A model generated the notes under the pieces. That model saw only the letters and a list, made by a program, of their open reading frames with translations, ran no database searches and had not been told where the DNA came from. DNA of 64,000 bases from Chrysomallon squamiferum (taxonomy: Eukaryota > Animalia > Mollusca): NCBI GenBank assembly GCA_012295275.1, contig CM022672.1, forward strand, positions 22,444,001-22,508,000. The letters are read 5' to 3'. Of the stretch, positions 1 through 56,644 are shown piece by piece (within the stretch, counting starts at the first letter, position 1; every line of letters starts with the position of its first letter). Position numbers and translations under genes: made by a program.

Positions 1-118
1 CTTATTTTGATAACAGATAATTTACAATAAATTATAGTCATTTTCTTCTGATACATATCCAATTAAATTAAATATAATAAATTACCAAGAGATAATCTAT
101 ATATAAATATATGCTTAC

Positions 119-1022
119 TTCTGATTTTCTGCTGTGCTTTGATTTAGTTTTCAGAGGACTTATCTGAAAACAAAATGAAACTTCAATGCACAGATATATA
201 TATATGACATCAATAATAAAAAGAAATTGTGGACTACAGAGAGTTCTGTATGAAGCAGACACCCAAATTAAAACATTGGGTTTAACTTTTTGCTTTTCTG
301 ATTCTCTGAATATTTTCTTTTTGCCTTTTTGATAAGTGATCTCTGTAGAAACAACCATAAAAATTATTATTAATAAACTTATATTGGAAAACAACAGAAC
401 AATAGCTTGTCTATTAATAGACAGGTAAAAAAAAAGTGAGACACAGAAATACATCCTTCATTTTCAGAATAAAATCTTCTTTAATATTCACAAATTTTAT
501 AGATGCTATAATTTTATCTCTTTCATTTCCTGCCTGTCTATTTATCTGTCTCTGTCTGTGTTCGTGTGCATGCAGTGGTGCAAATCATTTGTACCTTACT
601 GTAAATAAACGTATTGAGTACCTAAGGTGAGCAATAGCTTATTATCCACATGACCTGCTAGAAATAATATGTGCATGATTTAAAATAAATAAATAAAAAG
701 GTCTTGTATTAAATTATATTTTTTGGTTTTTGATTTTTGATTTTACTTACTTCACATTTTTTGCCATGCTTTGTTTTAGTTTTCTGTGGACTCTTCTGAA
801 ATGTCATACATGCATATATAAATACATTTGTTCAATCAGTCATAATGACTGAAGAGAGTTAGTTACAAGTTTTGCTTCACAATATTTATCTTTCAAAACT
901 TATGCAAGATAAAGTATTTTCCACTGGCCATAATCTCCTAATATTATAATACGTTTATGAGGTTATTATTTTTTTTTTCTCGTTATATTAATAGATAAAC
1001 TGTCCCCGACTGGAAACTATAA

Positions 1023-1055
<33 letters not shown>

Positions 1056-3800
1056 TGTGTGTGTGTTTATATACATATCCATCCATCCATCCATATGTGT
1101 ATATATATATATATATATATATGTATCTATGTATACAAACACATTCATACATGCATATATGTGCATATACATAAAAATATACACACATAAACATATACAT
1201 CTTATTTTTGAAAATATGATGTCCCAATAACTTTACTAACCTTTTGCTTGCTACTTCGTTTTTTTTTGGGTACCAATGGAATTATCTGAAAAAGTTTGAT
1301 ACAGAAAGAAATAATAAGAATAATTGTTCAGCATCAATCAATAAATATTTGGAATTTCTGTGTCCTTCTGTACAAAAAAGTATCAGTTCAAGACAGTGGT
1401 ATGGTTTCTTTTAATGTGCGTGTTTTAACATCCTCCTAATTTTATAATATTTTTATTTAGTTTATTATGTTTTTTGCTATTTTTATTTATAGAAGGTAGA
1501 TAGACATATATAGATAGAAAGATACAGAGATCAAAAAACAAATTTCATCAGCAGGTCTACTTGTATGAAACTATATCATAAAGCAGATAACTATGTTTTC
1601 ATTACCAGTTCAGAACATTGAGTAAGATTAAAAATCTGTGTATTTTTCTTAAAACAAATTTCCCAGAAATAAATTCAAAGAACCATATGAAAATTAATAT
1701 TATATTAAGCATGTTTTTGTTTTTTTAAATTTTATGTACATGTATTTACAACATGTATTTTCTTTCTTACCTCAACTTCACTAATTATGCCACTTGATGT
1801 TGCAGATGGTATTTTCTACAGAAATGAATATGAAAAAAATATTTGCAGTACATTTCAGTCCAATAACCTGAATAAGTGAATTATAAGTTACTTTAAAGGG
1901 TCAAGGATGCAACATAAATATCATTATGTTTGTTGTAGACAAAATTATATGAAAATATAAAATTAACAGGAGATAAATAAAGATTTAAAAGTCTGTCAAG
2001 AAATAGCTGACTCATATTAACAATACAAGCTCATAAGAAACAAACATAGCAGATGATCTCTTTCCATTACTTACATTCTTATGATGGCCATGCTTCTCTG
2101 TAGATTTCTGATGTGGAGATTTTGATGGAAAGCTCTGAATTAAAAATAAGATGTACCAGATATAATTTGATTTTGTTAATGAAATTTTAAGCTTAAATGA
2201 AAAGTTTACTGTAGCTTAACATGACTGGTCCCATTATACTTAGTCTTACAAATGATAGCTATGATCAATCCACCTGTGACCGAAACTAAGTGGTACAGCT
2301 TGATATTTACTGCCATACTGATTTTTGTAATTATGAACTAAGATAAATATAATACAGATTATTTGTAATACCTAATAATGCCAGGATAACACAGCTAGTT
2401 GTGTGGTTAGTGGTAAAAGGTTGGGGAGGGGATATCTATTGTCATAATAATTTTCATATTTATGAACTTATATATATATATATAAATGAACATTTGTAAT
2501 GACTCCATAACTTTATAAACTCAAGGAACTGTAAAATCCAATATATATATATATATATATCTTGAGCACCTTTCTAGAAGCTTCTTCATTCACATCCCGA
2601 ATGAGACTTACAAATGAAGCTGAACTTGGTGTTACAGAATTTGAAGGCTGCTAAAGTTCAAACAAAACATAGTTTGTGAATAATAAGTAATCTGAAGTTG
2701 AAAACATTTTACATTAGCTACATTATATGTGATTTACATACAGTCTTACTGTTAGTTTAACAAATTCTTACTGATTAAGATTTTTTCAATCTATAACAAT
2801 ATTTTAATTATTAATATAAAATCTTAATCCAAATTCATCTATAATTTATTCTTAATTTGCATGTACTGACAAGAGAGTCTTACAATTTGTTCTGTTGTCG
2901 TTAATTTTTTTAAAGTTATTTTTAAATGTACAGTTTTATCCTACAAGGAAAACTAGTCAATATGTAATATATATATTGTTAGTTCAGTGATCCCAGAATA
3001 TCTGTTACTCACAGTATCACCATGACCTTCTCGTTTTAGTGATTTAGAAAGCTGTTGCTTCAAAATCAGTGCCTGCAAAGTAAATAAAAGAAATTACTCT
3101 TGAATATTTTATTTAATCTTAAAAGACAACACATAACTGATAAACAGTTTGGGCTCCTGCATCTCATAGCCCAAGGCTTTCTGATGCTTTAATATGGTAC
3201 TGTTAAATCTGTGTGATAATTATTTCCATAATTACTGCAATCATACTTAGCTGCATTTATTCAACAAGTCTAGAAGACTATAAATTAATGAATGTTTTCT
3301 AATATATTCTTATATACATTTCTCCTAAGATGTTTTTCAACATCTTAAATTTTATAAAGATGTTTGTAAGTTTCCTTTGCAATATAATTACAATAAATAT
3401 TAACTGTATCATAATTTATACATGTTTTTTTTTTCTTTTCTTCATACCTGCAGCTCTTGAGTAAGCCTCTCAATTTCTTCATTAGATGGTGTTTTGGCAG
3501 TTTTTTTCTGGAAGAGTTAGAAGTAAAATCTATCAATTATCACTAGTGACACCATATTCAGTGAATAATTTATGTGCATTTTCTTTTGCCTTTTTATTAA
3601 ATAATGTCTGAGAAAAGAAACGTTTATTTTTTACTGCTTAACATTCTTGCATCTTTGCCTGTAAGGTGACCATTTATCATAGTTATCCACTATTTTAATA
3701 TATATCCTAACATCTTTTGGAAATATATAGAAGTTAATATATTATTTCAATCAAAACCTATGATTCAACCCTATTCTACAGTGTGTTTGTGTGTTTTGTT

Positions 3801-3836
<36 letters not shown>

Positions 3837-5936
3837 TCTGTGTGTATGTGTATAATTTAATGTTAAAATCAGAACATTACTTACATCAAAATCTGATGAT
3901 TTAGAGTGACCTCTCTGCAAAAGTTCAAACATAACAAGAAATACAAGGATTAAGATATTTATCATTATTATTATTATTATTATTAATTTATTTCCTTTTG
4001 ATTTGTTTGCTTTTTGAGGGTATTTTCATTTTTTTTCTTTCTTATTATCATTTTACAAAACTGTAAACATTTAACTGATATCATATTGTTATTGATCAGC
4101 AATCTAGTTTACTAGACATATCTATTTAGTGAAATTATATCATATATGACTACATTTGATACTTACTTCTTCACTACGTCCCTTCCTTCCAATATCTTTA
4201 GGTCGCTTTCTGATTATCTGCTCAGTAAATAAATATATATATTTTTTATCTACATTGTATAAAGCAATAAATATCAGTAAAAACTGTGAATAAATAAGTA
4301 ACATGTATTTCAAAGATATGGACAGCCGAACACTAAACATTTTTTTAAATAATAAATTAGAATGTATTTACTATGCTGACAAAGATCAAGGCAAATTAAA
4401 TTATCTTCCTAATTTTCCAACTTAGCCAAGAAATACAAAATTTAAGGTCTCATATTTCCAGTTTTAAATCCAATTAAGACTACCTGAATTATTGCTGAAG
4501 ATTCCTGTTTATTAGAAGACAGACATATTGCACAGATATGCCACATATGCCTGCCACTTTATAGAATGCTGAGAGTGACATTTTTGTTTTTGTGTTATTT
4601 AAGAATGGCTAGCAACCACAGGTTTATTCAAAGCAATATAAATTGTTAGTTTATTTCAAAATTTACCTTCCCTTCACTTCCACTTCTGACTAACATTTTA
4701 GAGCTTGATGATTTGACAGCTGATCTCTACAAAGTCAGTATAAAATCAAGTATAATTCATTCAACCCCCCACCGAAAACGAGAATAATTTAAAAAAAATA
4801 ATAAAATAAAATAAAAATTATTAATAATTTAGAGTTCCATTCATTTAAAAAAAATAAAAAAATAAATAAACTTAATATTTTTTATTTGACTGTAGTTTTG
4901 TGCTTAACTTTTTTTTTTCTCTCATCTAATCTTAAAAAAAATAACATTCTAATACCTAATCTAATTTTTTTTAAAATAAAAATAAAGTCTCGTTGAAGAA
5001 AATAATTACATGTATTATCACAACATTATAATCATAGTTACTCACACTTTCATGCCCTCTTTTGGATTCAGAACTAGGTATCTACAAAATATAATGAAAA
5101 CATTTTCACAAGGGCTATCCAATAACATATATAGCTTTAAACAAAATGAGTGTGCTTCAAATTTTATATTTAAACCTACAGACAGGTTGCTTGATTGATT
5201 GATTGACTAATAGATACATAGATATAAATGTTTTAAGATTTTAAAAATTACAGCCTTTTTAAAAATGTTCACCTAATGTATAGAGTAAAACCTGTTTTCT
5301 GTCATGCTCATCCAAAAAATTTGATTTAAACATACCAAATTTGGTAGGATAGCAAAGTACGAGCACCAGAAGTTCTTAAGGATTTTACCACTATTCACAT
5401 CTTCAGCAAGGACCTTTGGTTTGACTGTATAAAATAACCCGTCATGGGAAGGAAGAATTTTTAACACATGCTACCATGGCATCCTGCCTATGATGCTGTG
5501 GTCTCAGGGGTGACATCATATACATTTGGAATTTGACATAATAAGTAGTTTTAACTGTTAAACTTAATCTTCTGCCTGTAATTTTTTTACCATTAAGCCA
5601 TACTTGTTACTTCAGCTAGTTCTGTGTATAAATGCATAGCATAAGAAACAAACAAAAAACGTATATAAAATACAATAATGTAAATACAGAAACAATATCT
5701 CTACTATCAACAGACAGTCATAACTAGACTGTGACTCACATCTAATTCATCTTCTTCTTTAAGTTCCTACAAAAACAAACAAATTAAATATAAACAATCA
5801 AGATGTATATCAGAGAAACTGTTTTACTTTCAAATAAATATGTTATCATTAGAAAATACAGAATGCTGATGTTCAGTTTTATGGGAAGGAAATAATCCAA
5901 CAAAGGCAACTCATTATTACTTAACATACTGAATAC

Positions 5937-5980
<44 letters not shown>

Positions 5981-7136
5981 TTTTATTTAAAGATAATGAA
6001 AAATAAAAAGTACATTTATTAAATGTACATTTACAGAATGAACTCTAAGATACATCAAGATACATCAAGTATTTTATAAATGGTATCTGGTTATACCTTC
6101 TAGATACACATATTTATCATTTCTTAGCCATTTTAACTTATTAAGAAATTTTCATGATGTCAAGAATTAACAAGTATCTAGACATATATTTTGTTTGCCA
6201 TAAATAAGTTTATTTTTTTAACCTTCCATAATAACTATATCTATAATTAATATATTTTACTCACAGTGGAATCAGCAGCATCTTTTTCCTGTGCTTCAAC
6301 AGTAGATTTCTGTAATTACAACAAATGATCATTTCTTTTTATTTTTTTTTTTTTTTTTTAACTTCTCTTTGATACTTCTATTATTATTTCCTATTTTATT
6401 TTGTCAAACTATTTAATAACAAAAAAAAAGTGTGGAAATTAAAATTATCAATCTATTATGCTATTCCACTCTACAAAATAGACTTTTAATATCTTAATTT
6501 TGCCTTCTTTTTGTGAATAAAACAGTTTTATTTAAAATTACATACTCATACAAAAACAAAAACAAAAAATGGAGTTATAAATTCACTTAATATATATTTA
6601 CATATTTCCAAATGATTTAAAATGCTAATCTTCAGTAAATATCTATTTATAACATAAATATATTTGGATTACAGACTATTGATGTTTTTAAAAATGTAAA
6701 AATAAACTCACATCATCTTCTTGAGAATGCTTCCTGAAAAACCGTGATGCAAAGGATCCTGGTGATCTAGAGGTGGATCCCTTTAAAAGTTAAAATATTT
6801 GAAATAGTAAATCAACATGAGCAACATGATTGATTATAGTAAAGTAAAGTTTTAAGACACAGTTTATTTTTAATTTTGTATAAAATTCTATGAGCATTAG
6901 AAAAACATGTTTCTATTTTAAATCGTTCAGTAAATATAAATGTATGCAGCATTCTAATCATTACTCATATTATTTCATTAAACATATTTTCCATTCATAT
7001 TAGCTTTCACATAACTTGTGATTATTCTGACAGCCAAAATAATTTTAGTTTCTGTGTGATTAATTTATGATTAATTATTCAGTGTTAACACTCAAAATGA
7101 GGTACATTCAGTTTTTAAATTTATTCTCTTCATGCA

Positions 7137-7178
<42 letters not shown>

Positions 7179-7424
7179 AAAAGAAATCTAAGAAGTGAAA
7201 AAACTGTTTATAAAAATATATGATTGAATTCTATTTAAGCTTAGAATAATGCTTTTTCAAATTTTTTCAAATTTAACACTAACAACTCACATCATCTGAG
7301 GTATCCTGCTTCCCAAAGAGTCTGGAACCAAACCGCTTCAATCTTGGTGATTCAGATTTCTGACTGTCCTGCCAAAAATATTTAAATATTCTGACTTTTT
7401 CTCAAACAGGCAGTGAATCATCAT

Positions 7425-7461
<37 letters not shown>

Positions 7462-9871
7462 TTTACAGGTTATTATTTTTTTTTTCTAGTCCTAACATAT
7501 GCTTTCTAAAGAGTCTTTTCAAAAGTTAAATTGTTTTTTAAATGACAAAATATTTTCACCAAATGTTAAACAGACATACAAGAAGCTAGATTTAAATAAC
7601 TGAAAAACACAAAAAGTTCTTAAATCAAAAAAGAAATTATTATTTTTTTTTTAAAAGATGGTCTAATTCATTTAGTTTAACTTTACATTTCTCTCAACTT
7701 TATTTTGGTCACTTAATCATTATTTTATTTGTTCCTTGTCAAAAAAAAAAATATAAAGATTTATGCAAGTACTGCTGTAACTTTTTTCTGAACACAACTT
7801 ACATCTTTATCCTTTTTTTCTGATACTCTTGGCAACTGGAAAACAGATGACTTTTTCTGTGACATCTGTAATAACAAAATGAAGAAAAAGAAGAACATAG
7901 AAATTAGTCTCCCTTATGGTTTTTTCTAAACTATATCAAATAAGACGATATTTGTAAACAGTTCCCCATTCTAAATTATAGGTTCCAGCATGCAAAATTT
8001 GAACTTTTTTTAAATATAGAAACCAAAATAATTTCTTTTACAAAATTTAAATGGGCTAAAAATCGTAAGCACTTTGCTCAGAGTTCAATTTTAAAAACTG
8101 CACAAGGTGTTTTGGTTAACTGTATCTAGATCAAACTATAGGAATCTGCTCAGTTTCTATTTTATTTTTAAATTTTTATTTTGCCCATCAATCAGCTTTA
8201 CTGGAAACTTAATCTTAAACATTGAAACTGGACCAAATACACTCTGTCTGACTCGTTTTATTATTATTTACATTACATACATTGCTGTCAGAATCAGACT
8301 GTCTTCGATTTGGTGACTCCGATCGGGATCTCTGAAAAGAATCAAAAACAAATTAGTCGTAAGAAAAATTACAGGAATAACTAAGAATTTTTAAATATTA
8401 AATTTTGCCTTCTAGAATTTTTAACCAGTTAAAGAATTTTGATGTCATGTGAAAAAATGGCTTCAAAGATGCATACAAAAAAACTGTTTAAACATTTAAC
8501 TAATTTTGGATGTTAAATAATAATGTAGAACTGTTAACAGGTGTATGGTAAATAAAAAAAACTATGCTTAATCCAGTTAAAAATAAATAATTTTGTGCAA
8601 TGCAGAATATTCTATTTTTTTGGCATCAAAGAAATGGTTTTAAATATATCTTTATAACTGATTAGTAAAGTTTATTAAAGCATACATCATGGACTTTCTT
8701 ATGATGCCTGCGACTTGATGGTGCTGACCGTGATCGCTGTAAAAATAAATATTTTATTTTAAACATTAAGCAATCTGTCTAAATCATTTAAATGTTCAAC
8801 TGATAACTTGAATAATAAATGCTGCATTTTAATTATTTGAATGTTTCATAATCAACTGTCATCTCCTATAAAATATTTTTTGATAAATTAAAATATTAAA
8901 AATATGCTTTTTATGCTAACTTTAGTTTTGTTTTAACGAAGAAAATTTCCTTAAATCTTGTGACATGAACATATTACCTAACTATGTGGCTTTAATTTGG
9001 GTCTAAAGAGAACATTCTAGGAATACATAATTATATACATTTATATCTGAATGGCTACTCACTTCTTTTGTTCGAGTTTGTGAAGAAGCAGAATGATCAG
9101 ATGATGCCTGTAAAATAATGATTTGGAAAATGCAATAAATAATTAAAAACAACAACAAAAAGTTTTTGGTGCCTTCCCTGCTACAATTAATTTTATTAAC
9201 ATTTCAAAGACTGTATTATTTGGATATTAATATGAATTTTAATTTAACCTATGTCTAAAATATTTTTATATAATAAATAAAGAGCATGACAAATATATAA
9301 ATTTTTAAATAAATTAATTTATTAAATCAGGTACTCTGTGGTAAGATGAAAAAATATATTAAGAAATATATTATATGATTTTATGCTTAAACATTATTTA
9401 TAATTAAAAGTTTACACAAGATTAAAATCAAGTGTTAAATCTATGTTAAATTCAAAATGGCTCCAACAAATAGTTACTAGAATCTGACCTCCAGTATTAT
9501 ATACGTTATAAATATATTAACAATGTAAAACAACTGAATTTGTACTTACATCTTCACTGGTTTTCTTCCATTTTTTACCAGGATCTTTTGGTTTTTTACT
9601 CATTTTGTTATCATTGGACTCCAGAAGATATTCTTCAGCATGTTCTTCCTCTGGCTCATCAGCAGTTTCTCCTGCATTGTTATTTGCTAGTGCAGAAAAA
9701 TTTCTGTTATAAAGCTTCTTAAAAAATTTTGTTGGGAAGAGAGTCTTGCCCTTTAACCAATTTTTCAGGACCAGCTACAGAAACATAGTAAATAAAAATT
9801 TGTTATGTTCATTTTTATTAAAGATAAGGTGATGCCAAAAAAAATCCATACGTATTACAACAACAACAACA

Positions 9872-9903
<32 letters not shown>

Positions 9904-10865
9904 GAAGAAGATAAAGAAGAAGAAAGAAAGAAAGAAAGAAAGATTTATTCAGAAATTTCCAATATAGTTATAAGCACTGTTAACTTGAAATTGGTTACTT
10001 TTCAGAGAATATCTGTTGTTTGTTTATAAAACTGTTTTTTAATAAAAATTATTAGCCAATTTTGCAAATATGGCAAACAATTAAAAATAATATATGTCTA
10101 AATATTTCTTTTCTATATCATAAATAAAAATAAAAATAATGCTTACTAACATATGTACTGATATTTAACATTTTAGAACAAAGTACAAATGCATTTTGAG
10201 AAAATGTCATTATTATTTTATCTTGTTAATGAAATATTTGTTTCTGGATTCATAATATATTTCATCATTCTGTTTTCATTTTCAGGGCCCTAACCATGGT
10301 TTCAGGAGACATGAAATTTGTAACTTGCAATAACTTTTTTTTATGTCTGTATGTCAATTAATTGTGCATATCCATTCTACAATCACTAACTTGTATTTGT
10401 GTGGAATAAACCTCATCAAAGCAAAACAAATATTTTCTCATCCACCCGTTTTTATATCAGATATTTATTTATTTGGTTCCATTTACCTTTTTTAGAAGTA
10501 TTCCAATAATCAGTATCATGAGCACAACATGGAAGGCAATGAAAACAGTAATTTCTGTTTCCAGAGTCTTGGCTGCTTTCTGGAAACAAAAACAAAATCA
10601 GGGCTTTTAAAGATTTTTATTTTTTTATTTTATTTTATTTTATTTTTTTTTTTTTGTTAGTTTCAGAAATTAGTTTTAATATAACTCTCAAGTATATTGA
10701 CAGAATCAAATAATTCCTCTTTAACAGCAGATTTGGTGTACCATCTTTCTACTGAAGACTGCATGCCTGTTCATTTGAGTTTAAATAATCCTTCTCTTTT
10801 TATTTTTTTTTTTTTTTTTTTTTCATCTAAAATACAATGTCTTGCTTTAATAATAATAATATAAT

Positions 10866-10900
<35 letters not shown>

Positions 10901-11233
10901 AAGCTCATTATAATTCAAACTCAGAGAAAATCCTAACTGCAGAAATATGTATATTGACTGTGATTTCTAAGCTTGTTCTGTTAACCTTAGAATGACACAG
11001 CTGACATACCAGAACCGGTTGTTACAGTTGGAGTAGGTAATACATTTTGGAGACAGTCTACTATTTGTCAAAATTAAAAACAAAATAATAAATAAAAAAT
11101 TAAAATGTTTAACCTGTATATATTTATTTATTTTAGTTTTTCCCTAATGCAAATGTTTATCTCAAAATCAAATATTAAAACGAGATGCCAAAAAAAAACC
11201 TGTTTATTATTATTTTTTTATGTAGAGTGACAA

Positions 11234-11268
<35 letters not shown>

Positions 11269-11720
11269 CCCGAGATTATGTCAGTTTTCATTTATATTTA
11301 TAGATCATCACATACAGACTTGCAGTATTAGGATTATCGCGTTATCAGATCTGGTATCGGTTCTGTGCCTTACAGGTAAACTGCGGGTAAATTGCTGCTC
11401 CGCAAATTTATAATTAATTATAATTTTTAGAAATGTAACGTTTTTAATTTTCATTTAATACTGAGCTAAAATTGTACTCATAATACAGTGTTTCGTTTCG
11501 TCTGGAATAACATGACAGAATCAACAACTAATCAATTGTTTCCTACCTAATGCTTAATTTATTATACTACTGATTATTAATAGCATATAGCGTCTTAAAT
11601 AGAAAACATTAATGAAACTGAATCATCTCTCCAATAAACATACCATTTTTATATTTTGTTTGAGTTAATTTGTGGTCTCATCTTACCCAACGACGGTAAC
11701 TGTTCTTCATCTCGATTCAT
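119..11720 (-). CDS. Uncharacterised micro-exon gene encoding a Ser/Lys/Arg/Glu-rich low-complexity protein; 3' end probably runs off the window
   Basis: AG..GT-bounded exons read by hand: 11687-11720 (ATG, MNRDEEQLPSL), 11010-11060, 10487-10579, 9550-9774, 9063-9107, 8686-8736, 8281-8331, 7803-7865, 7291-7368, 6712-6780, 6265-6309, 5740-5766, 5046-5081, 4667-4726, 4167-4217, 3885-3914, 3448-3507, 3013-3072, 2570-2650, 2075-2134, 1771-1815, 1241-1285, 751-795, 119-163. From 9107 down, every exon is a multiple of 3, phase 0 and stop-free (e.g. RSRSAPSSRRHHKKVHD, KKTAKTPSNEEIERLTQELQ). The frame from the exon-1 ATG hits TAA at 9719-9721 unless one base is skipped. Confidence 0.75.
1025..1125. 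repeat. Compound (TG)n-(ATCC)n-(TA)n microsatellite
   Basis: Direct observation. Confidence 0.9.
5938..5980. repeat. (TAA)n microsatellite
   Basis: About 14 units. Confidence 0.9.
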
Positions 11721-11759
11721 CACAGTTCAAATTACTTTCCAATTAATGGCATTTCGACA

Positions 11760-12010
11760 TTTTGAAGAAAATGCGCCCGTGTTATATGAAAACGTATGTG
11801 CTTTTTTTTTTCTTCTTTTTTACTAACTTTTATTATTATTATTATTTTTAATTACATTTTCGGATCTAATTTACGGTGGCAACATTATTTCAAACCATTT
11901 CGGTGAGCCGAATGCCTAACAACAAATTGTCAGTTGAAACCGACGCCGTAACGCCGCCCACTGGATACTGTGACACATTTGTGACGTCATTTATTCTTGC
12001 ACGCGCAATA
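11760..12010 (-). promoter_or_regulatory. Probable promoter of the micro-exon gene, with a perfect CRE palindrome TGACGTCA at 11982-11989
   Basis: Locally CpG-rich patch in otherwise CpG-poor DNA directly upstream of the first exon; full CRE octamer about 260 bp from the ATG. Confidence 0.4.
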
Positions 12011-12032
12011 TTTGACCTTTACTTCATTGTTC

Positions 12033-12064
<32 letters not shown>

Positions 12065-12285
12065 GAAATAAAATAAAATATGTCTAATGTATTAGCATAA
12101 CGGTTAAAAGGTATGTGCATTCCAATATTTTTCGTTTTATTCAACCATTTCATTGGCAAAAATGCTTTTCAAATCAATTGATATACGATAATAAAAGATA
12201 TAAAGTAAATAATAATAATAATAATAATAAATATTGTTTAGCGGCCATTTGTATCCGTTTTTTAAGGTAAGTAGAAAGGTTATTT

Positions 12286-12306
12286 ATTTATTATTATTAT
12301 TATTAT

Positions 12307-12347
<41 letters not shown>
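12286..12347. repeat. (TTA)n-(TAG)n microsatellite
   Basis: Direct observation. Confidence 0.9.
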
Positions 12348-12935
12348 TTCATACAAAATTGCAGTGCCCAGAAAGAAGACAACCATAGTATTCCTACGTC
12401 AGACGGCACGATGGGAAAGTAAAGAAACTTTAAAGTTAGAAACTAAACAAGAAAATATGTGAAATGGTAGACCATTTATCCAATAAGAGGTACTGTCGTA
12501 GTATAGATTCATCGGTGATTGCGTAATCATGAAAAATGTATTTATGAATTTTTGCACTTTAGAGTTTTTGAAAATTAAAAAATTGAAACGCATTTCTTTT
12601 TGTGTAGTCTAGTTACTACCATCTAAAAGCAAGCACACGAAATGTATATACTTCAAAGTTATTTACCAGAAAAAGATAACACTTGGGCATAAATACACTG
12701 AGGCAAATGAGGCAAATACCTCATATCGAAACTGATTTATTTTTTTGTAATTATTATTCAAAGATTTTATTTTAAAAATATAAAATATTAATCTCTATTC
12801 CGATAGAAACGATATCCACTGAATTAATTCGTTTATGTCTACGGTTACCGTCTGAAGACCCCAGATCCCTCGCCAATTTTTTTGCCCCGGTCTGCTCGGT
12901 GATTAAGTGTTTGCCACATTTTAAAAAGAGTCTAG

Positions 12936-12985
12936 TTACGGCTGTGTAATAAATAACGTTTTATAAATAAAAGGCAGTATTGGTA

Positions 12986-13024
<39 letters not shown>

Positions 13025-14743
13025 TTTTAAAAAGCCGACAGTAATAAAGAAAATAAATATATAATTTTTCGCTGATACATAATCCCAAATACACTTTAAT
13101 GCAGTTCATTTAGTCAAAATAATATCTTTTTCTACCACTGGTAATAAATTACAGTTCTAATCATCTTTTAACAAAAGACAGTATAAAGAAATTAATGTCA
13201 GTTATTAATCGTTTTTCTTTCTTTCTTATTATTATTATTATTTTTTTTTTTTCATTTTAGTGAGTGAGAAAGCTTTTCCTGTTAAAATCGAAATTTTCTT
13301 TATCAGTGATATGAACAAGTATTTTATTGAACTCGTGAAGACATTTAAAAAACTGCTTATTGCCTCATAGTATTAAAATAGATATAAAACACATGAGAAT
13401 AAAATCATTTAAATAAAAACACCATTTAAAGATGCAAATCGTCTTACAATTAACTACTTACTGGTGGAACATCATCATATTCATAATCGTCAACAGCAGC
13501 AGGTTCATCATCAAACTCATCTTTTTGAGTTTCTGAAATAGAAAACGTATTAAATTTATTATTACACAAATATGTCCATATATATGTCCCAAGAGGGCTA
13601 GAACTAAGCCAACACCAATAACAGTACTAAGGACTGAAACACTGGGATATAGTCATTTTATAAAAGTAGGTCATCCAAAATTACCGTACCTGTCAAAAGG
13701 AATCAGCAAATAAAAATGCTCACGTTCTGCTATGATATCTTCCTCTGGTATAGGTTCTATTGCAGGGCGGTCTCCAACTGAATCCACAGCCAAAACAGCT
13801 TTTTCTACCGTCTGTTCTTCAACAGCTTCGTATTTTTCTCTGGTTGAAGGGTTGTTCAAAGCAGATATGATCTTCTTATGCTCAGCATCCATGTCTGTTA
13901 AGCGGGACTCAAAATCCTGCGAAGTCAGGTCAAACACCATGCCACCAAATACTGCATATACAGGTTCATCGCCCGAAAGACTAGTTGACTGGGCTACCAA
14001 ACCTTTTTTTTTTTTTTTTTTTAAAGAAAAAAGTTTAAATTGTGCACTTCATTCAGTGAATATGCTGAAATTCATTTGAGGTTTGTGTCATTAGAAAATA
14101 TTTAAATAATTATAGAAGATTAGCCGTCTGCATTTAATTAGTAAATTTATGAAAAAAATTATCATGTCACATACTTGTACATAATACACATCCTTACCAC
14201 AGCTTACAATCTGCCTGGTGTTACATATATTGTCATGAAAGACAATTTTTCCTGCTTCCTTTCGAACAACTCGAGAAAATTCCAAGAAGGTACAACTACA
14301 GCTTAATTCGTGGTGTCGTATATCCCTGAAAATTTAAACATGTATCATTCACTTGTATACAATAATTATATAAAAATAAGTATGAATTGTCAAGTATGAA
14401 AATAACACAAAAAGTTCATGATAGCTTTTTATTTACAGTTTATATATGATTATCTGAAAAACTTTTAAAAACACTTTTTGGATAAAACAATTAGGTATTT
14501 TTTAAATTTAAGATCAAAATTAATTTCCGTAATAAAAATCTTAAATAAAATCTGGAAAACTCACACAATCATTAGGCCTGGTCTTCTTTCAATACACTTT
14601 CCTAGCTTTTGTAAATCTCTGTTTATTAACAAATCACATCTGACAACTTGGTTGATCAACCCACACCCTTCAAAGCAAAACTGGTAGGGCTTACCATCAG
14701 GAGTGTCTATAAGGGAGCATAATAGGAGCAATGCAATTAGCAT
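12936..14743 (-). CDS. Uncharacterised secreted protein (~220 aa): signal peptide, 8-Cys LRRNT/LRRCT-like region, acidic C-terminal tail
   Basis: Exons 14565-14747 (ATG 14743, MLIALLLLCSLIDTPDG), 14198-14325 (DIRHHELSCSCTFLEFSR...NICNTRQIVSC), 13724-14002, 13462-13532 (QTQKDEFDDEPAAVDDYEYDDVPP) have compatible phases. Stop is either CCG-TAA at 12936-12941 after splicing or read-through TAA at 13450-13452. A likely 5' UTR exon has its donor at 15272. Confidence 0.65.
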
Positions 14744-15221
14744 ACTCCTACAAATAATAAAAATAATAATAATAATAATTATTATTATTAATAAATATCA
14801 TTAATTATAATAATAAAATGATAATAATAAAAAAAGCAAACAGCATAAATAACAGTGGTATTAATAATTGTTATTTTATTATCGTTTTATTATGTGATTT
14901 ATATTCAAATAATGATTGTTTAAATATTTTGATTTTAGATACACACACGTTTAAATCATTTTTATCATGTTTGATTTCAGTTTTAAAAAAAAAAATTTAA
15001 ATAAATAATAATAAATACTAAAAATACGCCATAAAAACGTAGAATGAATAAGAAAATAATATAAAATAACTAATCCAAAGGATTTGCGTACAAATAAAAT
15101 TACAGTTCCTCTTTACAAAACAAAAATAAAATAAACAACTTCATAAAAGTTAATTATTTATTTTTACTACTAGTAGTAGTAATAGTAGTAGCAGCAACAA
15201 CAAATATGTATATAAAAAAGA

Positions 15222-15270
<49 letters not shown>
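15222..15270. repeat. (ATT)n microsatellite abutting a splice donor
   Basis: About 16 units. Confidence 0.9.
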
Positions 15271-15272
<2 letters not shown>

Positions 15273-15399
15273 TTCTTGGCTCTTCTTCAGGCAACCAATA
15301 AAATCTGGCTGCATTCTAGCCATTAAACATGTCTTTAAATATCATTTTTAGTCAACTATTTTGTAAATAAAATTTATAAAACTTCAACAGAAAAGTTTA

Positions 15400-15500
15400 G
15401 CAGACGACATACGTATCTCTCACGAGAATCGTCGTAGCAAACGAAACGTTATCACAAGGCACCGGATGTTACTGTGACGTTACATCCGGGATCCTCACCT
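15400..15500 (-). promoter_or_regulatory. Probable promoter of the secreted-protein gene: inverted pair of ETS-like CCGGATGT motifs (15462-15469, 15482-15489) flanking TGACGT
   Basis: CpG-rich patch upstream of the first exon; perfect 8-bp inverted repeat with a 12-bp spacer. Confidence 0.4.
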
Positions 15501-15727
15501 GTGATATTAAGGCTGTCTTCAACACTGAAATGAATTTATTTCCCAATGAAATTGTCCAAATAATATAATTTTTCTTTTCATATCAAAACAGAAGATTTTT
15601 TTTTTTTGTTAGTATGGAAAAAGAACACGTATGATATATTTACAAATTTTCGTGAATGGAAGGATCCTCAAAATTAAATACATCCAATTTTCTATGTATA
15701 ATCCTGGTTTTTTCCCCATTATTACTG

Positions 15728-15900
15728 GATACTTGCCATTTTGTGAAAAGTGAAAACAGGGACAATCTAATTGAGGGTGTCGGTCATGAATTTCTTTGTT
15801 TCTTTCTTTCTTTAAATTAGATGCTCTGAGATGCGAATTCATATCTTTTGGGATGATTTTACCTGATTTAAATTCGGACACGTTACACTTTTTTTTGTCG
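15728..15900. mobile_element. Degenerate non-autonomous DNA transposon (MITE-like) remnant
   Basis: Begins GATACTTGCCA..AACAGGGACA, resembling CATACTTGCCAAC-type termini; contains minus-strand GCATCTCAGAGCATCTAATT, a motif I recall from marine-invertebrate MITEs. Recognised from memory only; no second TIR found. Confidence 0.3.
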
Positions 15901-16247
15901 TTGGTACAGAGAGAAAAATAAAAAACGTAGTAACAAATAATTAATAAAGAATAAAAGCTATAAAATATACTAATCGCAAGTAATATGAGATCATTGTAAG
16001 GCATACAAAATTCTTAGTGTTTGGACTGGGAGTAAGGATGAATAAAATCTTTCTAACTATTGAACATCCAAGAAGTATTTATACAGATTTACTTTACAGA
16101 CGTCAAGATGTAAACATCAACAACTGGAGCTAAAGTTCTGAATATTTCCACTGTGTTAAAAACAAATGGTTACTCTCTTCAACTGTTTAAAAATGTAGCT
16201 TCAAACTTTTTTTTTTTTTTTAAATTATTATTCGATCAATAAAAGGG

Positions 16248-16316
<69 letters not shown>
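16248..16316. repeat. (ATT)n microsatellite
   Basis: About 23 units. Confidence 0.9.
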
Positions 16317-16318
<2 letters not shown>

Positions 16319-16764
16319 ACAGAGTCAGTTAATTTCGTATGAAGGAAAATTATTAATTACATAATTAGAAAGATGATAACAGTTATGCTGTTTTGGGAAC
16401 AGAACTAGAATAGAATGAAAATGAAGATGGAAGCTGGAGGAACAGCTGACCTGAGATTCTCGTTTTGGAATCACCCGACACAGCCTCTAGAAAAGAATCC
16501 ACAAACGCGATGCTAGATATACGACATACAGAGCGTCCTGAATTTAAGTGTGTGTGTGTGTGTGAAATGAGGCTGTATGAAAGGGACAGTGTTCCCCTAT
16601 TGTTCAGAAATTGTTACGGTAGCCCTGAAAATTAAGGTATGTAATAGGTAAGACTATTTTTTTTTCTGTTGCGTGCCTCCAAAACCATTCTCACGGAGGG
16701 ACGTATAACGTCTAGCCCGTTCCTTCCCAATTTAGCCGTACATACTTTACTGTGCCACTAATTC

Positions 16765-17210
16765 ACATATATGCATGTATGTATTTATGTATGTATTTTT
16801 TTGTGTTCATTTCTTTTACGTATGTGGGTGGTTGCTGTCTACATACATGTGTAGGTATGTAATGTATGTTTAGATGACTTATTTCCTTCTCTGTATGAAC
16901 GTGAGTATGAAGGGTGTTATGTCTGTGTATGTATACAAACATGTCTGTGTGTCACACATGTATGTAAGAAAGTTTCTGACTTTACGTGTTATCGTGCTTC
17001 CTTTACAATGTGTGTTTATATGTTTGTGTTTATGTTTGTTGGCATGTATATACGTTTATATTTTTAAATGCGAGTAAGTGTGTATGATTATAAGTGTGTT
17101 TATGTTATCTATGCATATGTGTGAGTGTGTGTACTTGTGTAAATTATGTAAGTTTGCATAGATGCATGTGTGTATATATATATTTGTACATACGTGTACA
17201 CATACAACAC
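16765..17210. repeat. Degenerate (TG/TA)-rich low-complexity tract
   Basis: Continuous TGTATG/TGTGT-type decayed microsatellite. Confidence 0.6.
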
Positions 17211-18389
17211 AGCGATACAGAGTTGTTCATAAAGTCATTATGAAGTCTCTGTGCATTTTTATAGCTAGTTAGATATACGAATATAAATTATAATAAATTG
17301 AAGGTAAAATGTTATGTATGTTCCGAATCCTATTTTTGTTGCTGTGACGGGCGAATCGAGAAGGCCCCCAACTTTCTTCCTTATTTTTATTCTCGTAGAT
17401 AAGTGAGTAGTTCTCTTTCCGTTGCAGCTTCTCCGCCCCTTTCTTTATTTGCGTGATCGTTTTTAACACTTTTTTTTTAGAGACAATGTTCCTTTAACTG
17501 GTATTAAATTTGTTTCGGTTTGCATAACGTTTCTGTCAACCATGTGACTTGGATTTGTATAATTTTTCAGAACTACCATTCTGAAGTAATAATACGTCGA
17601 TGTCTTTTCTAGTTCAATACGGAGTTCTGTCTCCTTAATAATCGTTTGTTTATTTTAAGTCTGTGGAAATTTGTTTCATAATTTTAAATGCAGTTGTTGA
17701 AGATTGAAATGTTAATATGTCAACCTCTCGAACACGAATGACTGTTACTGTTGTCAAGCTGTTTATTCAATAGATTGACGTCACACAATGGGTTACACAT
17801 TACTTTATATTAATTTATTCTGTATATACATTTTGCATTGCAATTACAGTTTTTGATGGAAAGAATAATTTAAATATTAATAGTAATATTTAGTTTTATT
17901 TATTTATTATTAATTAGTTAGTTACCGATTCGGATAATTTCGATCGGAAAACGAGTGTGCAGTTGTAACTGAACTCTTCGTCCGCTAATATTTTTTATTT
18001 ATTTACCATTATCATCAGCACCGTTTCATTATCATTATTTAATAAATCCCCATATAACAGTTGATACAAAGTATCCATGTTTTTATAGCTATTAATTTGG
18101 TATAATTTTATCAAATTTTGCAGACTTAACACTGTTAACAGATAATGAATTAGCATTTAAAAAAAAAAAAAATTTAAGCAATACAGGCTCACAAATTTAG
18201 CTGTAACAATTATGATGATAATGATGCACGTGCTTTCCTGGCTATGGAATGGTGAATGTAAAGTTGTGAACATCTATAGTAAATAAATAAATAAAGGAAA
18301 ATTCCTTTGGAATTTTATTGAGGGGTCATTGTTCTTACCACCATTGTATTTTAAAACAAACACAAAATACAGAACAAGACTGTTTTGCT

Positions 18390-22284: not shown

Positions 22285-30102
<7,818 letters not shown>

Positions 30103-32288: not shown

Positions 32289-35200
32289 CACTCTGTATTG
32301 CAGAATAGTGCCTACATCACTGAAGTTCACCATGTAAACAGCGAGGGTGAAGATGCTGGTGTTGTTTACTGTGAAATGCAGGCTCGTGAGAACACTGGTG
32401 AAAGTCTGTGTCACCTCAACATGCTGCGAGCAATGTACCCGGGCACCTGTGGATACAAGTCAGAGACTGGGGGAATAATGGCTAATTTGCGAGGCAGTAC
32501 ATCGCATGAAAAGGTTTAAAAAAAAACCCCAGATATATAAAATACTTTTTTTTAACAAGTAGATGGTACTTTACATGGTAAAGTTTAGATGAATATAAAA
32601 TTTGGATCATTTTGAATTTAAAAGATGGTTTGTTGGACAAGATAAATACTTTTTAATAATAAAAAAAACTTAGTTTTTAATTTTAATTTTAATAGTAATA
32701 CCAAAAAATGTTTTAAGTTCTCTACAATAATCTAATATGCTGTGTTTGTATTGCTAATATTTTTAATTCAAATGAATAAAAAATATTTTGTTCTAAATGA
32801 ACATACGTAGATATATGTATAGTCAGTGTTTATATTTTATAAGCAATTGATAAATAATTATACCATGCTGATGTAATGGTGATTTATCTTTATGTTTATT
32901 ATTCAGTAAAAGCATGCTCTTATTACAGTAACAAAGTTTTTCATCCTTAGTTAAATGTTACTAAATGCACATCTCCTTATAATTCGAAAAAAAAAAGAAG
33001 GTCAGTTATTTTATTACAGGTTTGTAAGTACCATCATGACTTCTACCGTCCAGACAATCTGTGTCTAGTGATCACAGGTCAGGTGAAGCCAGAGGAAGTG
33101 TTTGAAGCTCTGGAACCAGTGGAAGAAATGATCAGATCAAAGGTAAAACAAACTATATTTATCTTACTCAGAATAATTTTAAATTATATTTTGAATTTTA
33201 AAAAATGTCATTTTTTTTTTTATATCTCATTTCTTGGCCTAGTTGCTGTATATTTTCTGATGAGTTGTTATTAAGTACAGCTTCTGTATGGGCACTTGTT
33301 GGTCTGAAATTACACCGATAAAACAGCTGATGGTAACAGGTTAGACCATGTACTGCAAGTTTATTATATACACATGCAGGGATATCTTGAACAGTCACCA
33401 AGTCGATTTTTTTCTTTGACTTGCAAACCAAAATCTGAGTTTTGAATGACCTTCAGATAAGCTGCCGCTAGTTGGCATAACAAACAACACAACATCCACC
33501 CAGCATCCCATGTCTCTACATTTGCCTCATGTGGTTAACTCACTGTGGAAGCATTTCTTGTGTTGTGCTTGTGTTTTGTGCAGTATTTTGCCAAATATCC
33601 AAGGATTCTAAGGATGTGAGTGCAAAGGACTGCTAGAAAAGAAGAAGCATATGGTGTCCATTGAATTAAAGCATGAAGTCATAGAAAAACATGAGCAAGG
33701 TGTGCTTGTAGTCAATATGGCTAGCAGTATGAGCGTAATACTTTTATGATATATACCACACTGAAGCATAAGGAGTCAATAAAGGCTATAACTCCAGCCA
33801 AAGGCATTAAAATAAGTTCTAAGCTGCAGACCTCTGCCCATGAAAAGATGGAGAAACCCTAACCCTGTACACTTTACAAAACCAATTTATTTCTTTACAT
33901 ACTCTTTTATTTTGTTTTTACACAATATTTTTCATTTATACATACATTTTTCTTATTTAAAAACATGTTTTTGGGGGTCTGGAACAGATTAAAGGTATTT
34001 CAATTAATTTCATTTGGGAAAATTGATTTGATATACAAGCAAATTGAGTTACGATCTTGGTCACGGAACGAATTAAAATCATAAGTCAAGGTACCACTAT
34101 ATTTACAATTTTAAGTAATTATGATAATTAAAAAAAAATGTATCTGGAAGGAAATCTGTAACAGATAATTAGGTACTTTTGATGGTCTTGATTCCCATTC
34201 TTTACTTGATATAATTACAATCGATTTCATTAAAAGCATGATTAATTTATTTTATTTGGGATTAAGACTCCAAATATCAGCCTTGTAAAGGAATATTTGT
34301 ACTCAAGAAAAGGTAATTTTTTTCTGATTTTCTTTGAAGTCAAAATATAATTTCTTATATGCTTTCATTTTTCATGCACCACTATTTGTCACCCAGTCAG
34401 TATTTATATACTGTGACAAGTATGAAGTAAATGTGTAAAATTTTTTTTTCAATTTTTAAGGGTGAGCTTCCCCCTTTTACTCGTCCATGGCAGCTTGAGG
34501 TGCCCCCTCTTGAAAAGAGTGTGGAACAGGCAATTGCCTATCCATCTGATGAAGAGAAGTATGGCATGGTCTACATGGCCTGGAGAGGACCAAAAGCTAA
34601 GGTGAAAACTGTACAGAATTATTTTGTATTTTCATTGTAATAAAATATTTCTTTATTTTCAAAATGGACAATGCTTTTAATTTGAAGCAATGCATATTTA
34701 TTCAATAACTATTTAGACACTATATTATAATTGTTTCTCAGACAGAGATACTTCACTGAGTAATTCCTTTATACAGCACTTTCCTAAAAACAGCAGTGCA
34801 TATATCAGTAAACCATGGTCTCTGATAAATAGACAGCATGTTTGTATATTAAATTTCCGTTTACAAACAGTGGTTGTATTTATGGTTGTATTATTCTATT
34901 AAAATGTATTATTAAATTATAATGTTGAGAACAAAACACCAGCAGGTATTCGTATATGGTAACAAAAACTTTCTTGTTGTATACAGGAGCAGTATAGGTT
35001 GCTGAGTGTAGGAGTTCTGATGCAGTACCTGTCAGATTCTGCCATCTCACCATTACAGAGAGAGTTAGTGGAGATAGCTGACCCATACTGTAGCAAGGTA
35101 CCCTAATAATTCTTTAAATCTTTAAAAAAAGTTAATAACCATTCTATAATAACTAGTTAAGACACTGTTAATCTTTTATTATTATTTTAATTTATTATTA

Positions 35201-48623: not shown

Positions 48624-50011
48624 TTAATGAAAACACACTGGGCCTGCCTCAAAGCCAAATTTCTGCCATGGGTTGCCATAGTCACCAGGCATAAAACTAA
48701 CAATTGGCAAGCGACTCAGTTTGTCTGATCTTACTTCAAACACAGTAAATCCATTTTGTCTGCGATCCTGTAAAACAAAAAATAATCAACCATTTTGAAC
48801 AATAAAATAAATTCAAATAAAGAATTAATATATTGTTAATTAGTGCCAAAAATATTCTAAGGTTATGTATAATAAATCTTATGGTAATCATTTATGTTTT
48901 TTGCATTTAAACCTTATGGTAATCATTTATGTTTTTTATCTTATTTTTGTTTCATTGCAAACACATTATTTAAATTATATTAAACTATAACTTATTATGT
49001 TCAATTATTATTAATATGTTTAATAAAAGTAATATAGATTTTATTAATTTTTAATCTTAAACCCACAAAATATCTGAGAAACAAATAACTGGTACATTTA
49101 TTAAATTAACTTTTATAACAAAAATAAAAGTTAATGTTTTTTTTGTTTTTTTTCCTTTTTATAAATATTAACCAAAATAATGACACATCAACAACTGTAA
49201 TAATAAACAAACTGAATAAAATAAAACAAACCATTTAAATCTTATTATATTTTTACAAAAAATAAATAATAATCATAATAATTAATAAATAAATTAGTTA
49301 ATTATAAAAACTTACCCTGCATCCATCATGTAGAACTTGTGACCTGTCAAAGTTCTCTGTATTGAACTTAGTACCATCGTCTCCTAGCAACGTGATTCCA
49401 TTCTTGTGATCCTTGGCAGCCTGATCGTACCAGGCCACAGAACCTGAGCAGTAGTAGGTGAACCTTTGACTGACCTCAGTACTCAGCATTCGAAGCAAAC
49501 TTATCTGAACAGTAGTCTGGGGACCGCCATATTGGACCTGAGAAAACCAAAATAAAAAATTTGTTATTTTTTGAAATAGAAAGACACCCCTCCCCAAACA
49601 TTTGTGACTTACTGTATTGTAAAAACAGGACAAATTTTATATTTTAATGATGCATGAAATATAAATGGAAAAAATATATTAGACCAATAATATTTTATTG
49701 CACCAATTTTTTTTCCAGATAGTCTCAATGTAGGACTGAATGAATGGATTAGTTTTCATATATTTTTTATCTGTAGTTATTCTGAATTTCAAATGATATT
49801 GAATAAAACTTAAATTATTTTTTTCATCACTGAATAAAACTTAAATTATTTCATCAGAAATTAAATAAATAAATAAATAAAATAATAAGCACACAAACAG
49901 TTGCTGTGAAAATTGATAAATTTCACATGTAATTACCTCTGTGCTGTCAAATGCCACAGAAAATACAAAGATAACAAAAAAACACACACACACACCTGAC
50001 ACACACATACA

Positions 50012-50070
<59 letters not shown>

Positions 50071-56602: not shown

Positions 56603-56644
<42 letters not shown>

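What the first reader, a model, noticed from the sequence alone, without database searches (positions are those of the whole stretch)
119..9107. Orphan gene built from a run of 20 symmetric phase-0 micro-exons: candidate combinatorial-splicing (MEG-like) system
Seen: 20 consecutive exons of 27-81 nt (45,51,51,63,78,69,45,27,36,60,51,30,60,60,81,60,45,45,45,45), spaced about 250-700 bp apart. All are multiples of 3, phase 0, stop-free and have canonical splice sites. They encode short Ser/Lys/Arg/Glu/His-rich peptides with no fold I recognise, and the gene is essentially invisible in the ORF track. Known: symmetric micro-exon arrays allow any subset to be skipped in frame, as in Schistosoma micro-exon genes, tropoelastin and triadin. 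Inference: a lineage-specific disordered protein whose length, charge and phosphosites (RS, SP, RxxS motifs) are tuned by exon choice. This is the best candidate for an undescribed system in this window.
Basis: partly seen in the sequence, partly recalled or inferred. Interest (0 to 1): 0.78.

Follow-up and report, generated by a model that had tools for sequence, protein, structure and literature searches.

The report
Membrane protein with small-exon tail
These 20 small in-frame exons encode the predicted floppy, inside-the-cell tail of a membrane protein whose gene splices two different front ends onto it, and the available RNA shows no exon skipping, so this is likely an ordinary scaffold-type protein that grew by exon duplication rather than a mix-and-match splicing system.

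Summary
The 20 minus-strand, phase-0 exons are real, with the stated lengths, and far above chance. Contigs of two RNA runs (one study) join micro-exons 1-8 in order. They show no skip, and each has one unbranched contig longer than the rest of the array. The gene starts right of the finding: a 225-nt exon and a transmembrane exon (10487-10579) precede the array. RNA splices two different front ends onto the transmembrane exon: an acidic-stalk exon (13462), predicted to follow a signal peptide and an 8-cysteine LRR-cap-like domain, or a first exon ending in ATG (11644). The micro-exons therefore encode a basic, serine-rich, predicted disordered cytoplasmic tail; exons 18-20 are tandem duplicates. 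MEG membership fails: 3 of 20 exons are 36 nt or shorter, the encoded part is predicted cytoplasmic, and no skipping was seen. No homologue was found, but only single-exon fragments could be searched and the C-terminus lies outside the window. The closest layout is chicken BG. The scan noted similar arrays on other DNA, including another piece of this genome, but not this gene. Skipping in other tissues remains untested.

The parts
14565..14747 (-). Predicted exon A (ATG at 14743): hydrophobic signal-peptide-like start plus four cysteines; LRR N-cap-like pattern
   Evidence: Splice-site and frame prediction; the donor is chosen by frame and motif and was not seen in RNA
14198..14325 (-). Predicted exon B: CxC..C..C, LRR C-cap-like
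   Evidence: Prediction; atlas lead only; post-hoc pattern
13724..14002 (-). Predicted exon C: helical then acidic stalk
   Evidence: Open frame and phase fit; both ends are uncertain because the acceptor follows an A-run and stronger sites of other phase exist
13462..13532 (-). Exon D: acidic, Tyr-containing juxtamembrane stalk; spliced to the TM exon; reading on into its intron gives a stop after 3 more codons
   Evidence: Donor shown by the loose end at 10579 in X1 and X2, equal to window 13462-13491; terminal reading predicted
11954..11989 (.). GC box (11954) and CRE-type palindrome (11982) in a CpG-rich patch: likely promoter of the short form
   Evidence: Sequence; function inferred
11644..11899 (-). 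Alternative first exon whose last three bases are ATG, spliced in frame to the TM exon; left limit of the 5' end unknown (at least 255 nt if colinear)
   Evidence: Loose end at 10580 in X1 and X2; the X2 letters equal window 11645-11674; GT..AG intron of 1064 nt
10487..10579 (-). Transmembrane exon (93 nt, phase 0): 9 residues, a hydrophobic helix, then basic residues
   Evidence: RNA joint to 9774; Kyte-Doolittle 19-residue peak 2.95
9550..9774 (-). 225-nt phase-0 exon: basic juxtamembrane segment, acidic patch, Lys-rich end
   Evidence: RNA joints at both ends
9063..9107 (-). micro-exon 1 (45 nt)
   Evidence: RNA
8686..8736 (-). micro-exon 2 (51 nt)
   Evidence: RNA
8281..8331 (-). micro-exon 3 (51 nt)
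   Evidence: RNA
7803..7865 (-). micro-exon 4 (63 nt)
   Evidence: RNA
7291..7368 (-). micro-exon 5 (78 nt), basic amphipathic segment, resembles exon 6
   Evidence: (RNA)
6712..6780 (-). micro-exon 6 (69 nt)
   Evidence: RNA
6265..6309 (-). micro-exon 7 (45 nt)
   Evidence: RNA
5740..5766 (-). micro-exon 8 (27 nt, acidic)
   Evidence: loose end in X1 and X2 read by eye
5046..5081 (-). micro-exon 9 (36 nt)
   Evidence: predicted
4667..4726 (-). micro-exon 10 (60 nt)
   Evidence: predicted
4167..4217 (-). micro-exon 11 (51 nt)
   Evidence: predicted
3885..3914 (-). micro-exon 12 (30 nt)
   Evidence: predicted
3448..3507 (-). micro-exon 13 (60 nt); a short amphipathic helix is predicted across the 13/14 junction
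   Evidence: predicted
3013..3072 (-). micro-exon 14 (60 nt)
   Evidence: predicted
2570..2650 (-). micro-exon 15 (81 nt, or 39/57 nt by inner in-frame donors)
   Evidence: predicted
2075..2134 (-). micro-exon 16 (60 nt)
   Evidence: predicted
1771..1815 (-). micro-exon 17 (45 nt)
   Evidence: predicted
1241..1285 (-). micro-exon 18 (45 nt), 64% like exon 20 with its splice sites
751..795 (-). micro-exon 19 (45 nt), 82% like exon 20 with its splice sites
119..163 (-). micro-exon 20 (45 nt); ends in a donor, so the gene runs on past the window's left end

Best explanation
The 20 small exons encode most of the predicted disordered, basic, serine-rich cytoplasmic tail of a single-pass membrane protein; the eight seen in RNA are spliced in order without skips, and the array likely grew by tandem exon duplication, so its frame symmetry is likely a by-product rather than a diversifying device. 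Shown: the exons; splicing of the TM exon, the 225-nt exon and exons 1-8; and two different upstream exons spliced onto the TM exon. Inferred: the long form is a type I protein with a signal peptide, an 8-Cys LRR-cap-like domain and an acidic stalk. The short form starts 10 residues before the helix and is a signal-anchored protein with the same tail inside. Inferred mechanism: the Lys/Arg clusters and short amphipathic helices of the tail dock on the acidic inner membrane face or on partner proteins, serine phosphorylation releases them, and promoter choice decides whether the scaffold also carries an outside sensing or adhesion module. Confidence is about 0.8 for the architecture and about 0.35 for the scaffold mechanism.
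For: RNA joints for 8 introns in X1 and X2, all GT..AG and in order; none skips an exon; the run X3 that covers the introns shows none of these joints. The X2 contig runs 1961 nt unbroken from the TM exon and the X1 contig 851 nt past exon 7, while exons 8-20 total only 645 nt. Internal control: both assemblies break exactly at the TM exon's first base and keep both 5' alternatives. There is one internal hydrophobic helix followed by basic residues, and a hydrophobic N-terminus; the positive-inside rule is recalled knowledge. Exons 19 and 20 are 82% alike including splice sites and exon 18 is 64%; exons 5/6 and 16/19 resemble each other. A predicted helix straddles exons 13/14. The fibrillar collagen in the same window has a run of 54/108-nt phase-0 exons, so symmetry alone is no sign of skipping. 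PMC3632108 (abstract, sections 17, 19) reports that disordered proteins tend to be built of symmetric exons, often by tandem duplication.
Against: Exons A-C and their joins are predicted only, and two of the chosen splice sites score weakly. The LRR-cap reading has no significant hit: Pfam, PDB sequence and fold searches were blank, atlas scores were under 0.8, and the low-confidence model of exon B showed strands, not a helix. Phospho-motifs are not above shuffles. The short form's leader would hold 8 upstream ATGs if colinear. The C-terminus is unseen and no partner is known.
Confidence: 0.62

Rival explanations
1. One reading: the array is a combinatorial splicing device, and tissues or stages not sampled here skip subsets of exons to tune tail length, charge and phosphosites.
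For: All 20 exons are symmetric phase 0, so any subset could be dropped. Net charge differs sharply between exons (-5 to +6). Exon 15 has alternative in-frame donors. Alternative exons are more often disordered and symmetric in human genes (PMC3632108, section 17).
Against: No skip joint and no contig break at a micro-exon boundary in X1 or X2, although a 5' branch is kept in both. A predicted helix spans two exons. The exonic differences shown give pN/pS of about 0.38 (8 replacement, 6 silent; 561 and 159 sites), which does not point to diversifying selection.
Confidence: 0.13
2. Two genes: a small secreted Cys-rich protein gene (exons A-D, own stop) and a separate signal-anchored tail gene with its own promoter near 11.95 kb. 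The exon D to TM splice is read-through with little function.
For: Exon D read into its intron stops after three more codons, and an AATAAA lies at 13328. The TM-and-tail part is CpG-poor (o/e 0.21) like the neighbouring genes, whereas 11-13.4 kb is CpG-rich (1.31) with a CRE and GC box. The short first exon is shown in RNA.
Against: The exon D junction is in frame, uses a good donor (score 4.9), appears in both RNA runs, and yields a coherent signal peptide-domain-stalk-helix order.
Confidence: 0.15
3. This is the front part of a known protein family whose defining domain lies beyond the window's left end; the micro-exons are then just a lineage-expanded linker between the membrane anchor and that domain.
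For: Exon 20 ends in a donor; the contigs continue at least about 200 nt (X1) and 600 nt (X2) past exon 20 if all exons are included. The CpG-poor gene body suggests a broadly expressed gene (inference from recalled invertebrate methylation patterns).
Against: No fragment of the front part found a relative, although these searches are weak for short, low-complexity pieces.
Confidence: 0.2

Closest known systems
Chicken BG genes (butyrophilin family; PMC5938342, passages read)
   Same: Signal sequence, small ectodomain, TM exon, then a long cytoplasmic tail encoded by many small symmetric exons whose number varies between BG genes.
   Different: BG has an Ig-V domain and 21-nt heptad exons with split first codons, forming a coiled coil, with intron read-through isoforms. 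Here the exons are 27-81 nt, phase 0, mostly non-repetitive and predicted disordered, the ectodomain is Cys-rich, and an RNA form lacks it altogether. No sequence relationship was found or tested.
Schistosoma micro-exon genes, MEGs (PMC8293314 and PMC4015677, passages read)
   Same: A run of short symmetric exons, no homologues, a signal peptide predicted in one form.
   Different: MEG exons are mostly 36 nt or shorter, encode secreted or surface-exposed parts, show exon skipping and high dN/dS. Here 3 of 20 exons are that short, the array is predicted cytoplasmic, no skipping was seen and pN/pS is about 0.38.
Disordered proteins assembled from symmetric exons, such as SIBLING/enamel proteins and calpastatin (PMC3632108, abstract and sections 17, 19)
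   Same: Disordered low-complexity region built of same-phase symmetric exons with tandem exon duplication.
   Different: Those examples are soluble or secreted; this one is membrane-anchored with alternative front ends.
Snail GRC/PTC2 single-pass transmembrane genes (PMC7494358, passages read)
   Same: Single-pass membrane proteins with no known domains or homologues outside gastropods; this genome is called a snail's in earlier notes.
   Different: Those are clustered and hyperdiverse. This gene stands alone in the window with modest polymorphism; homology was not tested.
Single-LRR membrane proteins with N- and C-caps, such as platelet GPIX/GPIb-beta (recalled; search gave no supporting paper)
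   Same: Predicted small ectodomain with N-cap-like and C-cap-like cysteine spacing around one LRR-like strand.
   Different: Resemblance by pattern only, one N-cap cysteine is missing, the last cysteine gap is short, and the cytoplasmic tail is far longer.

Membership tests
Schistosoma-type MEG | Coding sequence made mainly of symmetric exons of 36 nt or less | tested here: not met
   3 of 20 exons are 36 nt or shorter, median 51; the 20 exons make up 1047 of 2022 modelled coding nt
Schistosoma-type MEG | Exons symmetric (removable in frame) | tested here: met
   20 of 20 phase 0 and multiples of 3
Schistosoma-type MEG | Multiple exon-skipped isoforms | tested here: inconclusive
Schistosoma-type MEG | Micro-exon product secreted or exposed at the surface | tested here: not met
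   The array lies behind a TM helix followed by basic residues, so it is predicted cytoplasmic; prediction, not assay
Schistosoma-type MEG | High dN/dS | tested here: inconclusive
   Within-species differences only: 8 replacement and 6 silent among the 40 of 54 rows shown, ratio about 0.38; no orthologue for dN/dS
BG / butyrophilin | Ig-V ectodomain | tested here: not met
   No Ig family hit for exons A, B, C, D in Pfam at E up to 10
BG / butyrophilin | Tail of 21-nt heptad exons forming a coiled coil | tested here: not met
   Exon lengths 27-81 nt, Ser 21%, FoldIndex -0.30, only short amphipathic stretches
LRR-cap (LRRNT/LRR/LRRCT) membrane proteins | Significant profile or fold match to LRRNT, LRR or LRRCT | tested here: inconclusive
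   Pfam, PDB and fold search blank on single exons. The atlas's ten best family hits all share a family or clan with the LRR-type best one but score under 0.8. A recalled, loosened C-cap pattern matches, against 0 of 100000 shuffles, post hoc; the N-cap pattern matches 3150 of 100000 shuffles
LRR-cap (LRRNT/LRR/LRRCT) membrane proteins | Fold of the whole spliced ectodomain | not testable with these tools
   Only single exons could be folded; models had pLDDT 63 and 58
Tyrosine-motif transmembrane adaptors (LAT-like; recalled) | Tyrosine signalling motifs in the tail | tested here: not met
   0 Tyr in the 349 micro-exon residues and no YxxPhi motif in the tail within the window

The most novel reading that the evidence does not exclude
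One mollusc locus yields three products: a secreted LRR-cap-like module, a receptor carrying it, and an ectodomain-less anchor. The two membrane forms share a 20+-exon cytoplasmic tail whose charge blocks are switched by tissue-specific exon skipping, which would be an intracellular counterpart of MEG-type diversification in a free-living animal.
Probability: 0.1. Interest if true: 0.62.

Novelty: new variant of a known kind. Interest (0 to 1): 0.3.

Why it matters
As it stands, this is a hard-to-annotate membrane-protein gene that ORF-based annotation would miss, and a clean case in which a symmetric small-exon array shows no skipping in the RNA at hand. The RNA-shown choice between an ectodomain-bearing and an ectodomain-less form is the more interesting feature. 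It would matter more if long reads showed tissue-specific skipping, or if the LRR-cap-like module proved to be a recognition domain, since lineage-restricted single-pass proteins control parasite resistance in some snails (PMC7494358, passages).

Tried and rejected
No whole genome is held, so the exons beyond the window's left end could not be read.

Homologue searches with single exons found nothing: the 75-aa exon among longer proteins (0 of 20 candidates); the exon C region at near and longer lengths (0 of 4; 0 of 252); metagenome contigs (0 of 328; 0 of 372 pattern matches confirmed); atlas for the 75-aa exon (best 0.88, unnamed clusters, low recognition); earlier findings by sequence.

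The one phmmer hit (P0001, E 9e-10, 26% identity, 9 stretches) is a coral tandem-repeat protein. I rejected it because its score is summed over repeats.

Pfam hits to exon C (PDZ_3, YunG, DUF3095; E 0.016-0.08, below cut-off) and PDB sequence hits (E 0.12 or worse) were rejected as chance. Single-exon folds were low confidence. One model was searched, with no match; the other was not searched.

An alternative reading of the 93-nt exon as a Cys cluster, with a shorter acceptor inside the 225-nt exon, was rejected because RNA uses the full 225-nt exon. A first-exon donor at 11687 was not seen among the loose ends shown (23 shown, 69 not shown).

RNA run X4 gave no cover of the exons; this is no evidence on expression. 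Three non-canonical joints inside introns (one in X1 at depth 6, two in X3, sides 20-22) were set aside as repeats or other sequences. The X1 contig break inside exon 5 was read as a heterozygous site, not a splice event, because both contigs reach into the exon (inference).

Literature searches for a mollusc micro-exon gene of this kind listed none that describes it by title or abstract start. The original MEG paper (DeMarco 2010) was not read, and no supplements were opened.
Full report
Observation. The window is AT-rich, intron-rich eukaryotic DNA (GC 0.24-0.32). The ORF list shows only one frame of 100 codons or more within 119-9107, at 68-457, which runs through intron sequence around exon 20. 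All 20 of 20 exons are on the minus strand with AG..GT ends, the stated lengths, phase 0 and no stop; introns are 252-658 nt. To avoid picking ends that fit, I called exons without any frame rule. The minus strand of 1-9300 gave 15 calls, 13 of them multiples of three and open in frame 0, and 12 identical to listed exons. The plus strand gave 1 call and none of that kind. 100 block shuffles gave 0.19 on average and at most 2. Two control regions gave at most 1 per strand. Exons have GC 0.39 against 0.25 in introns, and stops number 0, 14 and 39 in the three frames. The array is real.

RNA. One search listed four runs of one organism. I laid their contigs on 6200-10620. RNA runs X1 (contig depth 126-172) and X2 (depth 20), of one study, cover the exons. 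Of 12 joint rows, 9 are eight consecutive introns of this gene: 93-nt exon to 225-nt exon, on to micro-exon 1, and through to micro-exon 7. The other 3 rows are non-canonical and intronic. A loose end in both runs reads micro-exon 8. No row joins an exon to any but its neighbour. Run X3 covers all 30 bins including introns and shows none of these joints. Whatever is included there, the assembler kept no branch. That assemblies break at well-supported branches and drop rare ones is partly the tool's own caveat and partly recalled, so this speaks against frequent skipping in these samples only.

The gene is larger than the finding. Both runs have two loose ends at the first base of the 93-nt exon. 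One equals window 13462-13491, the end of an acidic exon 2.9 kb upstream. The other equals 11645-11674 in X2 and differs by one base in X1; it is an exon whose last three bases are ATG, next to a GC box and a CRE-type palindrome in a CpG-rich patch. Both introns are GT..AG and both joins are in frame. This also serves as an internal control: the same assemblies that show no micro-exon branch do keep this 5' branch. In that frame the 93-nt exon encodes a strongly hydrophobic helix (peak 2.95) followed by lysines. Upstream of 13462, three predicted exons (14565-14747, 14198-14325, 13724-14002) give an open model of 674 residues to the window edge: a hydrophobic N-terminus, a segment of about 87 residues with 8 cysteines, an acidic stalk (pI 4.05), the helix, and the tail. 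These three exons and their joins are predicted, not seen in RNA.

The tail. The 349 micro-exon residues are 21% Ser, 14% Lys and 9% Arg, with no Tyr or Trp, pI 10.1 and FoldIndex -0.30. Net charge per exon runs from -5 to +6. RxxS/T (9 against 6.9 in shuffles, P 0.24), S/T-P (8 against 4.7, P 0.07) and 14-3-3-type motifs (2 against 0.7, P 0.14) are not significantly enriched. Short amphipathic stretches lie in exon 5, exon 15 and across the 13/14 junction. Exons 19 and 18 match exon 20 at 82% and 64% over 56 nt including splice sites. Exons 5/6 and 16/19 resemble each other as peptides (190 pairs tested, so only the 19/20 pair is strong). Among the 40 of 54 difference rows shown, 14 are exonic: 8 replacement and 6 silent over 561 and 159 sites, a ratio near 0.38. 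Exon 8 also differs by replacement changes in both runs, read by eye.

The ectodomain. By eye its cysteine spacing resembles an LRR N-cap, one LRR strand split by the A/B intron, and a C-cap. The atlas, given exon B alone, returned LRR-type families for its ten best family hits but with scores of 0.78 and below, which the tool rates as a lead only. A recalled and loosened C-cap pattern matches and was met by 0 of 100000 shuffles, but it was written after seeing the sequence; the N-cap pattern is weak (3150 of 100000). Pfam, PDB and fold searches on single exons were blank. I rate the LRR-cap reading at roughly even odds.

Relatives. No search with a single-exon fragment found a relative. These are weak negatives, because the whole protein could not be used and the C-terminus lies outside the window (no genome held). 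Earlier notes on this genome call the organism a snail; I did not test that.

How it likely works. A single-pass membrane scaffold whose long basic, Ser-rich tail lies in the cytoplasm and is predicted to bind the acidic membrane face or partner proteins under phosphorylation control. Promoter choice gives a form with or without an outside Cys-rich module. The exons, their order and the two 5' joins are shown; topology, translation of the short form (8 upstream ATGs if its leader is colinear) and the scaffold role are inferred. Rivals are skipping in unsampled tissues, read-through between two genes (exon D has its own stop and an AATAAA), and a known family defined by a domain beyond the window.

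Comparison. MEGs are described as made mainly of symmetric exons of 36 nt or less, secreted or surface-located, skipped, and with high dN/dS (PMC8293314, PMC4015677; passages). This gene fails the length and location criteria and shows no skipping so far, so it is not a MEG and is not shown to work like one. The nearest layout is chicken BG: signal, ectodomain, TM exon, and a tail of many small exons (PMC5938342, passages; lead taken from earlier notes). It lacks the Ig-V domain and the heptad exons. Disordered regions built from symmetric, tandemly duplicated exons are a documented general pattern, and phase 0,0 exons are about as common among constitutive (24.9%) as among alternative (22.4%) human exons (PMC3632108, abstract and sections 17, 19). 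The collagen gene in the same window has a long run of symmetric phase-0 exons too.

Verdict. Observation confirmed; the combinatorial-splicing interpretation is unsupported by the available RNA. This is a new variant of a known kind of gene layout, with an RNA-shown choice of front ends as its most notable feature. Interest 0.3.

Noticed in passing
window 13440-13532 and 13328, minus strand: Exon D read on into its intron stops after three more codons and an AATAAA follows about 120 nt later: a possible secreted form of the ectodomain, like secreted versus membrane forms from one gene.
   Followed up: partly
window 11647-11990, minus strand: The leader of the short form would hold 8 to 10 short upstream ORFs before the terminal ATG, which could repress or regulate its translation.
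   Followed up: partly
window 13462-13532: Two tyrosines flanked by acidic residues in the juxtamembrane stalk look like tyrosine-sulfation sites (recalled motif, untested).
   Followed up: no
window 2570-2650: Exon 15 has three in-frame donors (after 39, 57 and 81 nt), all weak; the best candidate for real alternative splicing inside the array.
   Followed up: partly
window about 23100-27300, minus strand: Exons of a bZIP factor followed by a hydrophobic segment, ATF6-like by eye (Pfam bZIP_1 E 0.0007, below cut-off; name recalled).
   Followed up: partly
window about 32900-42600, plus strand: Exons of an M16-family peptidase-like gene (Pfam Peptidase_M16_C E 7e-06 at 32951-33271).
   Followed up: partly
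window 49300-63600, minus strand: Fibrillar collagen gene (COLFI) with 54/108-nt phase-0 Gly-X-Y exons and two 36-nt exons near the end of the helix.
   Followed up: partly
window 11000-18000: CpG-rich island-like zone (o/e 1.05-1.31, dipping to 0.52 over exons A-D) between CpG-poor gene bodies (0.21-0.32), with CRE-type palindromes at 11982 and 17776.
   Followed up: partly
window 14003-14030: The predicted acceptor of exon C is preceded by a 19-A run between the T-rich tract and the AG; possibly a homopolymer expansion or assembly error.
   Followed up: no
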